A DNA stretch of 64,000 nt from Escherichia coli (lineage in GTDB: Bacteria > Pseudomonadota > Gammaproteobacteria > Enterobacterales > Enterobacteriaceae), in the NCBI RefSeq assembly GCF_017348835.2, contig NZ_CP071375.1; one strand, 5' to 3'. Positions within the stretch are counted from its first letter, which is position 1, and each line of letters opens with the position of its first letter. Position numbers: made by a program. This document shows positions 24,201 through 27,200 of the stretch, in pieces.

Positions 24201-27200
24201 CAGAGAGTAAGACATAGTGAAAAAATACGTGAACAACTCACACAGGTGTCAGGTCGGAAACAGCATAAATATGGATTAAATTGCTGCGACATGTCGTTAT
24301 GTGATGGATATTCCAATTTTCAAATTAAGTTGAATTATTGAGATTATTATTAACTACCTAATTTTACAGCAGATAAAATTCATAAAGTTCATTAATTGAT
24401 AATTGATATGGATTACTTCATAACCATGATATGGATTATGATGATCTACAGATATAAAAAACCCTGCCATGCGGCAGGGTCATAAAAGTAAGAAGAATGA
24501 ATTAACGCGCCAGCCAACCGCCATCCACGGCAATGGTATAACCATTCACATAATCTGAAGCGCTGGAGGCAAGGAACACTACCGGCCCCATCAGATCACT
24601 CGGCAGTCCCCAACGGCCAGCTGGAATGCGGTCGAGAATTTCCGCGCTACGTTGTTCATCTGCCCGTAGTTGTTGAGTATTGTTGGTCGCCATGTAACCC
24701 GGAGCTATCGCATTAACATTAATGTTGTGTTTAGCCCATTCGTTCGCCATCAAACGCGTCACGCCCATCACACCGCTTTTTGATGCGGTATAAGAAGGCA
24801 CACGGATCCCGCCCTGGAAGGAGAGCATTGACGCGATATTGATAATCTTGCCGCCATTGCCTTGCGCGATAAAGTGTTTCGCCGCTGCCTGAGACATGAA
24901 GAATACGCTCTTGATATTCAGGTTCATGACATCGTCCCAGTCTTTTTCGCTGAACTCGAGAGCATCTTCGCGGCGAATCAATCCGGCGTTATTCACCAGG
25001 ATATCAATATGACCAAACTCAGCTACCGCGCGATCCAGCAGTGCTGGAATGCCATCAATCTTTCGCAGATCGGCGGTCAGGCTTAAAAAACGACGCCCCA
25101 GCACCGTGACCTGCTTGATGGTTTCAGTCGGTTCAACGATGTTAATGCCAACAATGTCACAGCCCGCTTGCGCCAGCCCCAACGCCATCCCCTGGCCCAG
25201 TCCAGTATCACAACCAGTGACGACCGCAACTTTACCTTCGAGAGAAAATGCACTTAAAATCATAACAATACCTTATTCGTTTATGCCCACAACTAGCGCA
25301 AATCTTTAACGGCCACATGGTCCATATCATCAAAGACCTGGTTTTCACCGACCATGCCCCAGATAAAGGTATAAGCTTTGGTTCCGACGCCGGAATGGAT
25401 CGACCAGCTCGGGGAGATCACCGCCTGCTCGTTATGCATTACAATATGACGCGTTTCTTGCGGCTGCCCCATCATGTGGAAAACGCAGGCGTCATCATCC
25501 ATATTGAAATAGAAATAAACTTCCATCCGGCGCTCGTGAGTGTGACACGGCATGGTGTTCCACAAGTTACCTGGAGCCAGCTCCGTCAGCCCCATACTCA
25601 ATTGGCAGGTTTCCAGCACATCCGGGACAAAATATTTGTTAATTGTGCGACGGTTACTGGTGAGGTTATCGCCTAACGTGACTGGAGATACTTCGTCCGG
25701 TGTGACTTTTTTGGTGGGATACGTCGTATGCGCAGGTGCGCAATTGTAATAAAACTTTGCCGGAGTGGCGGTATCAATACTGGCAAAGACAACTTCTTTT
25801 GCACCTTTACCAACATACAGGGCGTCGCGGTGACCGATTTCATAGCATTGACCATCGACAGTAATCGTACCGGCACCGCCAATATTGATAACACCTAACT
25901 CGCGACGTTCAAGGAAATAGCTTACGCCGAGTTGTTTACCAACTTCCCCGCCAACGGAAACCGTTTTAGTTACCGGCATAATGCCGCCAACAATAATTCG
26001 GTCAATGTGGCTGTAAACCATGGTGTACTCATCGGCGACAAATACCTTTTCAACCAAAAATTCATTGCGCAGCCCTTGGGTATCCAGTGTTTTTGCGTGC
26101 GCACTGTGGATGCTCTGTCTTACGTCCACATCAACCTCCGATAATCAGTGAAGCGTGAAAATAGAAAACGATAGTGAAACACTGTTTCGTTTTCTCTATA
26201 AGGGGATGATATGCCCATGGGATAGGGTTTTCAATTAAAAATAAAACAATGTTTCATTTTTAAGTTAAGGATTAAAAAAAGTGCAGTGTCGATCACGAAT
26301 ATGTCATGAGAATGGAAAAATCAGGGAGTCCTGAAAAGGTATGTCGACTCACCAGCCATCATTATTCAACAGATTAATGACGGCAGATATTTATCGGTAA
26401 AGAGGAAATGCAGAGCTACTCGTCACGTTCAATGGTCAATGCTACGCCCTGGCCCCCGCCGATACAAAGCGTTGCCAGTCCTTTGCGGGCATTACGTTTC
26501 ACCATTTCATGAACCAGAGAAACCAGGATTCGGCAACCGGAAGCGCCTATCGGGTGACCGAGTGCGATCGCGCCACCATTGACATTGACCCGACGCTCAT
26601 CCCATTCAAGCATCTTGCCAACCGAAAGCGCCTGTGCAGCAAACGCTTCATTCGCCTCGATAAGATCGACATCAGCCAACTGCCAGCCTACACGCTCCAG
26701 GCAACGGCGGGTCGCATACACCGGCGCAATTCCCATCAATGCCGGATCTACACCAACGCTGGCAAATGCGCGGATGCGGGCCAGCACGGGTAAATTCAAC
26801 GCTCGTGCTTTGGCTTCGCTCATCATCATTACCGCAGCTGCGCCATCGTTTATGGATGATGCATTACCCGCTGTCACAGAACCGAGACTATCAAATGAAG
26901 GATTTAAACGGGCTAAACCTTCTGCACTGGCGTCAGTGCGTGGCTGTTCATCGGTATCAACAACCAACGTCTGACCGTTACTTTGGGTCATTACCGGGAC
27001 GATCTCATCTTTAAATCGTCCGGCGTCAATCGCTGCACGCGCTTTTTGTTGCGAGCTAAGTGCATAAGCATCCTGCAACTGACGGCTGATGCCATATTCG
27101 CGAGCCAGATTTTCGGCGGTGACACCAATATGATAATCATTGAAGGCATCCCACAACCCATCGTGCACAAGACTATCAACCAACTGGCTATTGCCAAGCT

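What the first reader, a model, noticed from the sequence alone, without database searches (positions are those of the whole stretch)
24400..24445. Direct repeats TAATCCATATCA upstream of araE, possible AraC half-sites
Two identical 12-mers containing the TCCATA core of AraC half-sites lie 23 bp apart on the araE coding strand. They are more than 200 bp upstream of the araE ATG and close to the kduD terminator. The spacing differs from the canonical 21 bp, so the assignment is tentative.
Basis: inference. Interest (0 to 1): 0.25.

Follow-up and report, generated by a model that had tools for sequence, protein, structure and literature searches.

The report
Conserved distal AraC half-sites upstream of araE
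Two short repeats far upstream of the E. coli arabinose transporter gene araE have been kept, with the same 23-bp spacing, across the family Enterobacteriaceae, and they look like extra docking sites for the arabinose regulator AraC, like the distant operator that forms the well-known DNA loop at araBAD.

Summary
TAATCCATATCA occurs twice on the araE strand (24404-24415 and 24427-24438), 23 bp apart, just after the kduD terminator. In one genome the repeat is only weakly non-random.

Comparative evidence makes it significant. In 59 of 59 Enterobacteriaceae araE loci with a recognisable promoter, two TCCATA boxes lie about 160 and 137 bp upstream of the proximal AraC site, or about 152 and 129 bp. 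They have the same orientation and are 23 bp apart (33 in one locus). They are conserved as strongly as the I1 box, the I2 box and the CRP site, while the flanking DNA has diverged freely.

The main activating site is elsewhere, at I1-I2 (24286-24249), with a CRP site at about 24300-24315. That layout matches araBAD.

More distant genera keep only one distal half-site, 150-154 bp from I1. This mirrors the lone araO2 of araBAD. D1 and D2 score better than araO2 on the same matrix.

Best reading: these are auxiliary, araO2-like AraC half-sites, most likely loop partners of I1 without arabinose. AraC binding and looping are inferred, not shown.

Interest is moderate.

The parts
24430..24446 (-). 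D1, the distal AraC-type half-site: GATCATCATAATCCATA. B box TCCATA at 24435->24430. It contains the upstream copy of the 12-mer (24427-24438).
   Evidence: The sequence was read. TCCATA is kept in 41 of 41 non-Escherichia loci at this distance from I1, at 2.0 bits per position. A at half-site position 2 occurs in 34 of 42 loci. PWM score is 9.0 bits, rank 6 of 127,966 positions.
24407..24423 (-). D2, the second distal half-site: TTATGAAGTAATCCATA. B box at 24412->24407. It contains the downstream copy of the 12-mer (24404-24415).
   Evidence: The sequence was read. TCCATA is kept in 36 of 41 loci, the same count as the I1 B box. TCCAT holds 2.0 bits in a profile anchored on D1 only. It is always 23 bp from D1, or 33 bp in L018. 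PWM score is 3.3 bits, rank 25. It is absent from the more distant genera that keep D1.
24270..24286 (-). Proximal araE I1 half-site: CAGCAATTTAATCCATA, with A box CAGC and B box TCCATA.
   Evidence: It is the top PWM hit in the window at 27.4 bits. It is conserved in all loci. It matches araBAD I1, TAGCATTTTTATCCATA. The B box lies 88 bp from the ATG in both operons.
24249..24265 (-). Proximal araE I2 half-site: TGCTGTTTCCGACCTGA. It overlaps the inferred -35 hexamer CTGACA (24252->24247).
   Evidence: It lies 21 bp from I1. The ACCTGA end is identical to araBAD I2. CCTGAC is kept in 36 of 41 loci. The -35 and -10 assignments are inferred by analogy with araBAD.
24297..24318 (-). CRP-type site: TGGAA-N6-TCACA on the araE strand, with TGTGA at 24300-24304 on the + strand. 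It lies immediately upstream of I1.
   Evidence: TCCATCACA is invariant in 41 of 41 loci. The order CRP, AraC, -35 matches the published statement that ParaE has the same arrangement as ParaBAD. The assignment rests on consensus match and position.
24454..24481 (-). kduD intrinsic terminator (hairpin plus T tract). It marks the upstream limit of the araE control region.
   Evidence: The T tract is conserved.
24316..24406 (-). AT-rich, poorly conserved spacer between D2 and the CRP site. This is the body of the putative loop. It includes a weak IHF-core-like motif at 24363->24351.
   Evidence: On average only 1.6 of 41 loci keep any given 6-mer here. The IHF-like motif sits at a fixed -88 from the I1 B box in many genera, 9/9 matches in Citrobacter and 7/9 in the window. 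This last point is speculative.

Best explanation
D1 and D2 are auxiliary, araO2-type AraC half-sites of the araE promoter, kept by selection. The promoter itself is built like araBAD: CRP site, I1, then I2 overlapping the -35 region.

Proposed mechanism:
- Without arabinose, the AraC dimer holds I1 with one DNA-binding domain and reaches back 137-160 bp to D2 or D1 with the other. This closes a small loop that encloses the CRP site. The loop keeps AraC parked at the promoter and holds basal araE transcription low.
- With arabinose, the distal contact is released in favour of I2, and transcription is activated.
- The second site, about two helical turns from the first, gives an alternative loop partner, or lets a dimer sit on D1 and D2 together.

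Shown here: the sites exist, match the half-site B box, are co-oriented with I1, and are conserved in sequence, spacing and distance across the family.

Inferred: AraC binding (about 0.85), and looping with repression as the function (about 0.5).
For: 1. Conservation. Of 59 loci with a recognisable I1-I2, all 59 carry both boxes. The D1 TCCATA is exact in 41 of 41 non-Escherichia loci and the D2 TCCATA in 36 of 41. The background for any 6-mer in the spacer is 1.6 of 41. Information content is 2.0 bits per position, against 0.1-0.5 in the flanks, the same level as I1, I2 and the CRP site. A motif-blind MAFFT alignment also aligns both boxes.

2. The sites belong to araE, not kduD. They stay at a fixed distance from I1 when the kduD-araE spacer is longer (Salmonella arizonae, Klebsiella indica, Superficieibacter). 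They are also present where kduD is not the neighbour (Phytobacter, Buttiauxella, Mangrovibacter, Cedecea).

3. Resemblance to an AraC half-site. The box is TCCATAT, as in I1. D1 has A at half-site position 2 in 34 of 42 loci, the xA-N9-TCCATA pattern shared by araI1 and araO2. On the I1-orthologue matrix D1 scores 9.0 bits and D2 3.3, against -0.02 for the validated araO2.

4. Same layout as araBAD. araO2 is a lone half-site in direct orientation, 211 bp upstream of I1. Distant genera keep a single distal half-site 150-154 bp upstream of araE I1. By established AraC biochemistry, a lone half-site can hold a dimer only through a second, distant contact.

5. Indels come in steps of about 10 bp. 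D1-I1 is 160-162 bp in 47 loci or 150-152 bp in 12, with nothing between. D1-D2 is 23 bp, or 33 bp in one locus.

6. AraC occupies the araE region in vivo without arabinose, by ChIP-qPCR (PMC3738151).
Against: - There are no binding data for D1 or D2.
- The A boxes are poor: GATC and TTAT against TAGC. By matrix score alone the sites are no better than several hits inside genes.
- The 23-bp spacing is not the canonical 21 bp.
- Phasing is ambiguous. Relative to the 211 bp of araBAD, D2-I1 (137 bp) differs by 7.0 turns at 10.5 bp per turn but by 6.7 turns at 11.1 bp per turn. The 11.1 figure is the in vivo value as I recall it from Lee & Schleif 1989. D1-I1 (160 bp) differs by 4.9 or 4.6 turns.
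- The 10-bp steps rest on perhaps two or three independent events.
- From memory, unverified: classical genetics (Kolodrubetz & Schleif 1981) did not report AraC-dependent repression of araE, and reviews draw only one AraC site there.
- The MG1655 RefSeq record annotates nothing in this region.
Confidence: 0.6

Rival explanations
1. D1 and D2 together form an ordinary two-half-site AraC site bound by its own dimer, like araO1 or the upstream sites of araFGH and araJ. There is no loop to I1. The site might act as a local store of AraC, aid activation modestly, or have little effect.
For: The two co-oriented half-sites are about two helical turns apart, with strictly conserved spacing of 23 bp, or 33 bp (one extra turn) in L018. 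From memory, Carra & Schleif 1993 showed that AraC tolerates altered half-site spacing, including one extra turn.
Against: Buttiauxella, Mangrovibacter, Cedecea and Franconibacter keep only D1, at the same distance from I1. A lone half-site would be useless under this model. The distance to I1 is also conserved and changes in steps of about 10 bp, which an independent site would not need. Both A boxes are weak, so a dimer bound in cis would bind poorly.
Confidence: 0.22
2. The conserved boxes are bound by some protein other than AraC, or serve a structural role unrelated to arabinose control.
For: There are no AraC binding data. The A boxes are weak. TTATCCATA in some genera looks superficially like a DnaA box (TTATCCACA). 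A weak IHF-like motif lies nearby.
Against: The conserved core (A/G)TCCATAT is identical to the I1 B box of the same promoter and has the same orientation. The T at the position where a DnaA box needs C is invariant in 42 of 42 loci. The sites follow araE rather than kduD. They are missing in Erwiniaceae, where the promoter context differs.
Confidence: 0.08
3. The repeat is a chance or slippage-derived duplication with no function.
For: Close 12-mer repeats arise in 14% of simulated windows. The 12-mer identity is specific to this strain.
Against: The boxes are conserved across about 20 genera while the flanks are randomised.
Confidence: 0.02

Closest known systems
araO2, the distal operator half-site of araBAD/araC in E. 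coli
   Same: - It is a half-site with a perfect TCCATA B box and a poor A box (GAAA).
- It has the same orientation as I1.
- It lies far upstream, with the CRP site inside the interval.
- It shares the pattern xA-N9-TCCATA with D1.
- Distant genera have a single distal site at araE, as at araBAD.
   Different: - The distance to I1 is 137 and 160 bp (or 129 and 152 bp) rather than 211 bp.
- Most Enterobacteriaceae have two sites, 23 bp apart, rather than one.
- There is no divergent araC promoter and no araO1 in the interval.
- Looping and repression at araE are not demonstrated.
araI1-araI2, the canonical activating AraC site
   Same: - Direct repeats of AraC-type half-sites about two helical turns apart.
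- The B box of D1 and D2 is identical to that of I1.
   Different: - Spacing is 23 bp, not 21 bp.
- There is no TAGC A box.
- The sites lie about 190-220 bp upstream of the inferred start, not overlapping a -35 region.
- No conserved promoter elements follow D2.
- The true araE I1-I2 is at 24286-24249.
Upstream AraC sites araO1, araFG2 and araJ2. I recall these from Hendrickson et al. 1990 and Schleif's reviews and did not check them here.
   Same: They are additional AraC sites upstream of the activating site in ara-regulon promoters. Some have little or no measured effect.
   Different: As I recall, those are full two-half-site elements that were footprinted in vitro. D1 and D2 have not been footprinted and are defined here by conservation. 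K-12 araFGH, araJ and ytfQ show no comparable co-oriented TCCATA pair.
Auxiliary operators of looping repressors (lac O2/O3, gal OI). This is an analogy only.
   Same: Weak distal sites that raise the local concentration of a bivalent regulator at the main site.
   Different: They belong to different protein families. AraC is also the activator of the same promoter.

Membership tests
AraC 17-bp half-site | B box TCCATA (or a close variant) at positions 12-17 | tested here: met
   Both D1 and D2 have an exact TCCATA. The box is conserved in 41 of 41 loci for D1 and 36 of 41 for D2.
AraC 17-bp half-site | A box TAGC at positions 1-4, seven bp before the B box | tested here: not met
   D1 has GATC and D2 has TTAT in the window. 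Across genera only the A at position 2 of D1 is kept, in 34 of 42 loci. The validated araO2 (GAAA) fails this feature too.
AraC 17-bp half-site | Location in the control region of an AraC-regulated gene, co-oriented with the activating site | tested here: met
   The sites are 137 and 160 bp upstream of araE I1, on the same strand.
AraC 17-bp half-site | AraC binding demonstrated by footprint, gel shift or ChIP at site resolution | not testable with these tools
   Only region-level ChIP-qPCR of araE without arabinose was found (PMC3738151).
Adjacent dimer site of the I1-I2 type | Two direct half-sites with 21-bp periodicity | tested here: not met
   The spacing is 23 bp in 58 loci and 33 bp in one.
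Adjacent dimer site of the I1-I2 type | The promoter-proximal half-site overlaps a -35 hexamer | tested here: not met
   No conserved promoter elements lie downstream of D2. The consensus scan finds nothing above background.
araO2-type looping operator | Distal half-site sharing xA-N9-TCCATA with I1, in direct orientation, more than 100 bp upstream | tested here: met
   D1 meets this in full. D2 has the B box only, with T at position 2 in the window. araO2 is 211 bp from I1 in direct orientation.
araO2-type looping operator | Can occur as a lone half-site | tested here: met
   Buttiauxella, Mangrovibacter, Cedecea and Franconibacter have only one distal box, 150-154 bp from I1.
araO2-type looping operator | Dependence on helical phase between the distal site and I1 | tested here: inconclusive
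   The distance classes are 150-152 and 160-162 bp with none between, plus one +10 bp insertion between D1 and D2. These reflect few independent events, and the phase relative to araBAD depends on the assumed helical repeat.
araO2-type looping operator | AraC-dependent repression of basal transcription without arabinose, relieved by mutating the distal site | not testable with these tools
   This needs reporter assays. No such data were found in the library.

The most novel reading that the evidence does not exclude
araE, the low-affinity arabinose transporter gene, is controlled by an AraC DNA loop like araBAD, but with a shorter loop of 130-160 bp and a conserved tandem pair of distal half-sites 23 bp apart. 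This architecture would have been kept throughout the Enterobacteriaceae. It would set the basal number of transporters, and so the threshold and timing of all-or-none arabinose induction. It is absent from the standard picture of the ara regulon, in which only araCBAD loops.
Probability: 0.4. Interest if true: 0.5.

Novelty: new member of a known kind. Interest (0 to 1): 0.4.

Why it matters
AraC and araBAD are the textbook case of regulation by DNA looping, and pBAD with araE is a standard expression tool.

If araE has its own conserved distal operators, three things follow:
- Loop-based control is a general design of the regulon, not a peculiarity of the araC-araBAD divergent region.
- Basal AraE level has a defined cis element that can be mutated. 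Single-cell work identifies this level as the source of all-or-none induction and variable induction delay, and states that the quantitative properties of PE are unknown (PMC3935871).
- The conserved 23-bp tandem geometry and the loop of about 140-160 bp give a natural test case for how AraC's two DNA-binding domains choose between near and far half-sites.

On the practical side, reporter or engineering constructs that cut the araE promoter at the CRP site would lose these sites.

Tried and rejected
- **Single-genome statistics.** The repeat alone is weak evidence: 14% of simulated windows have such a repeat. The 12-mer with up to 2 mismatches is not enriched in the window, at 12 found against 8.2 expected.

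- **Matrix scan alone.** An I1-orthologue matrix ranks D1 sixth and D2 25th, among hits inside genes. It cannot establish the sites. It is useful only relative to araO2.

- **Third exact copy of the 12-mer (20993-21004).** It lies in a conserved block of the lysR promoter region, TCTATGCAAAAATGATATGGA. I judged it a coincidence, not an AraC site.

- **D1-D2 as an activating site for its own promoter.** Rejected. Nothing downstream of D2 is conserved, and the promoter-like hits are at background rate.

- **DnaA box.** Rejected from the logo.

- **kduD 3' element.** Rejected because the sites follow araE when kduD is distant or absent.

- **Literature.** Ten searches and several look-ups found no mention of distal araE sites. 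A search for the sequences themselves found nothing. Stringer et al. 2014, Johnson & Schleif 1995, Carra & Schleif 1993 and Kaplan et al. 2008 are not held. Stoner & Schleif 1983 has no PMC copy. Prior description therefore cannot be excluded.

- **Annotation.** MG1655 RefSeq lists no feature between araE and kduD.

- **Other ara promoters of K-12 (araFGH, araJ, ytfQ).** None has a comparable co-oriented distal pair.

Full report
**Setting.** The window is E. coli; the region is 100% identical to strain PE164 and is present in 5423 of 5426 complete genomes. araE is on the - strand, with its ATG at 24187->24185 and its stop at 22769. kduD is on the same strand at 24502-25263. The 314-bp spacer begins with the kduD intrinsic terminator: stem 24481->24460, followed by a T tract.

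**Observation.** TAATCCATATCA on the araE strand occurs at 24404-24415 and 24427-24438, 23 bp apart. I call the upstream copy D1 and the downstream copy D2.
- Their TCCATA boxes lie 248 and 225 bp before the ATG.
- The inner 10-mer TAATCCATAT has a third copy at 24269-24278.
- In one genome this is modest evidence. A close 12-mer repeat turns up in 14% of Markov simulations.
- Two extra co-oriented TCCATA within 175 bp has P about 0.0025.
- In K-12 and other E. coli the copies share only 10-11 nt.

**The main AraC site is elsewhere.** On the araE strand the sequence reads CAGCAATTTAATCCATA-TTTA-TGCTGTTTCCGACCTGA (24286->24249). This parallels araBAD I1-I2, TAGCATTTTTATCCATA-AGAT-TAGCGGATCCTACCTGA.
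- A matrix built from 41 non-Escherichia I1 orthologues puts this I1 first in the window, at 27.4 bits.
- Immediately upstream is a CRP-type site, TGGAA-N6-TCACA (about 24315->24300), whose TCCATCACA is invariant in 41 of 41 loci.
- The I1 B box is 88 bp from the ATG in both operons.
It does not bear on auxiliary sites.

**Comparative evidence.** One scan with AraE returned 80 loci from as many species.
- In all 59 loci with a recognisable I1-I2, two TCCATA boxes (at most one mismatch) lie upstream on the same strand.
- D1-D2 spacing is 23 bp in 58 loci and 33 bp in one, a Raoultella MAG.
- D1-I1 distance is 160-162 bp in 47 loci. It is 150-152 bp in 12 loci (Klebsiella, Raoultella, Kluyvera, Phytobacter and one unnamed lineage). 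There is nothing between these classes.
- A MAFFT alignment made without reference to the motif aligns both boxes as islands in unalignable DNA.
- In a profile anchored on D1 only, D1 TCCATAT and D2 TCCAT carry 2.0 bits per position, against 0.1-0.5 bits in the flanks. That equals the I1 and I2 boxes and the CRP site.
- Counting exact 6-mers within +-12 bp of the expected distance from I1, the D1 TCCATA is kept in 41 of 41 non-Escherichia loci, D2 in 36 of 41 and I1 in 36 of 41. The spacer average is 1.6 of 41.

**The boxes belong to araE.** They keep their distance from I1 where the kduD-araE spacer is much longer (Salmonella arizonae, Klebsiella indica, Superficieibacter). They also persist where kduD is not the upstream gene (Phytobacter).
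- Buttiauxella, Mangrovibacter, Cedecea and Franconibacter, all without kduD upstream, keep a single distal half-site 150-154 bp from I1 and no D2.
- Erwiniaceae have I1 but no distal box.
- D1 therefore looks older, and D2 looks like an addition in the core of the family.

**Likeness to AraC half-sites.** The conserved core is (A/G)TCCATAT, as in I1.
- D1 also keeps A at half-site position 2 (34 of 42 loci) and an AT-rich run before the box.
- A 2025 mutational study of pBAD gives xA-N9-TCCATA as the pattern shared by araI1 and araO2. It also reports that TCCATA mutations in araO2 raise expression (PMC11983282).
- Neither distal site has the TAGC A box, but araO2 (GAAA) lacks it too.
- On the I1-derived matrix araO2 scores -0.02 bits, D1 9.0 and D2 3.3.
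- araO2 lies 211 bp upstream of I1 in direct orientation, with the CRP site inside the interval. The araE layout is the same, with a shorter interval.

**Mechanism.** Established AraC biochemistry says that the dimer without arabinose prefers two well-separated half-sites, and that with arabinose it prefers adjacent ones. It also says that a lone half-site such as araO2 works only by looping to I1.
- The lone D1-type site in distant genera, the conserved distance to I1, and indels that come as about +10 bp (both the 150 versus 160 classes and the 23 versus 33 spacing) all fit a loop between I1 and D1 or D2.
- AraC is on the araE region without arabinose in vivo (PMC3738151), which is consistent with this but not specific to it.
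- I put AraC binding at about 0.85 and looping with repression at about 0.5.
- The chief rival is a separate dimer sitting on D1 and D2 together. This explains the strict 23-bp spacing, but not the lone D1 or the conserved distance to I1.

**Weak points.**
- There are no binding data.
- The A boxes are poor and the spacing is non-canonical.
- The phase relative to araBAD depends on the helical repeat. D2 is in phase at 10.5 bp per turn, and neither site is in phase at 11.1.
- The 10-bp steps rest on few independent events.
- As I recall, unverified, early genetics did not report AraC repression of araE.

**Novelty.** I found no description of these sites in ten full-text searches, including searches for the sequences themselves. 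The MG1655 record has no annotation there. The two most relevant papers (Stoner & Schleif 1983; Stringer et al. 2014) and the regulatory databases were not available. I therefore rate it a new member of a known kind, an araO2-like operator at a second ara promoter, with a real chance that it has been noted before.

**Why it matters.** Basal AraE level is held to drive all-or-none induction and delay heterogeneity, and the quantitative properties of PE are stated to be unknown (PMC3935871). The proposal is directly testable with point mutants and phase insertions.

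Noticed in passing
window 20993-21004 (- strand): A third exact copy of TAATCCATATCA lies 22 bp upstream of the lysR ATG. 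It sits inside a block, TCTATGCAAAAATGATATGGA, that is conserved in Citrobacter, Salmonella, Enterobacter and Superficieibacter. This is probably lysR/lysA promoter or operator sequence, so the match to the araE repeat looks coincidental.
   Followed up: partly
L083 (E. coli EC6, NZ_CP182398.1), between the equivalents of window 24361 and 24362: An IS5-family element with a frameshifted transposase is inserted between the proximal araE promoter and the distal sites. This moves D1 and D2 about 1 kb away and gives a natural test strain.
   Followed up: partly
window 24351-24363 (- strand), AATTAGGTAGTTA: Many genera of the 160-bp class have a near match to the IHF core WATCAANNNNTTR at a fixed 88 bp upstream of the I1 B box, near the middle of the putative loop. 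The match is 9/9 in Citrobacter, 7-8/9 in most others and 7/9 in the window. The motif is absent in the Klebsiella and Kluyvera class. In such AT-rich DNA it could be chance.
   Followed up: partly
L018 (Raoultella MAG), upstream of araE: A 10-bp insertion between D1 and D2 gives a spacing of 33 bp instead of 23 bp. This leaves D2 at the Klebsiella-type distance from I1 (129 bp) and D1 at the E. coli-type distance (162 bp).
   Followed up: partly
window 55275, 55290, 55402 (+ strand): This is the only other cluster of three co-oriented TCCATA within 200 bp in the window. Its context was not examined.
   Followed up: no
window 59802-59813 and 59827-59838: This is the only other close 12-mer direct repeat in the window: TGGCGGCATTCC, 25 bp apart. 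It was not examined.
   Followed up: no
L066 (Mixta sp.), about 110-175 bp upstream of the araE I1-like site: A tandem array of the heptamer CCGCAGT fills the region where Enterobacteriaceae carry D1 and D2.
   Followed up: no
L003 (Salmonella arizonae), L026, L037, L018, L048, L064: The kduD-araE spacer is 50-350 bp longer than in E. coli, so extra DNA has been inserted upstream of the araE control region. In the aligned examples a terminator-like hairpin still directly precedes D1.
   Followed up: no
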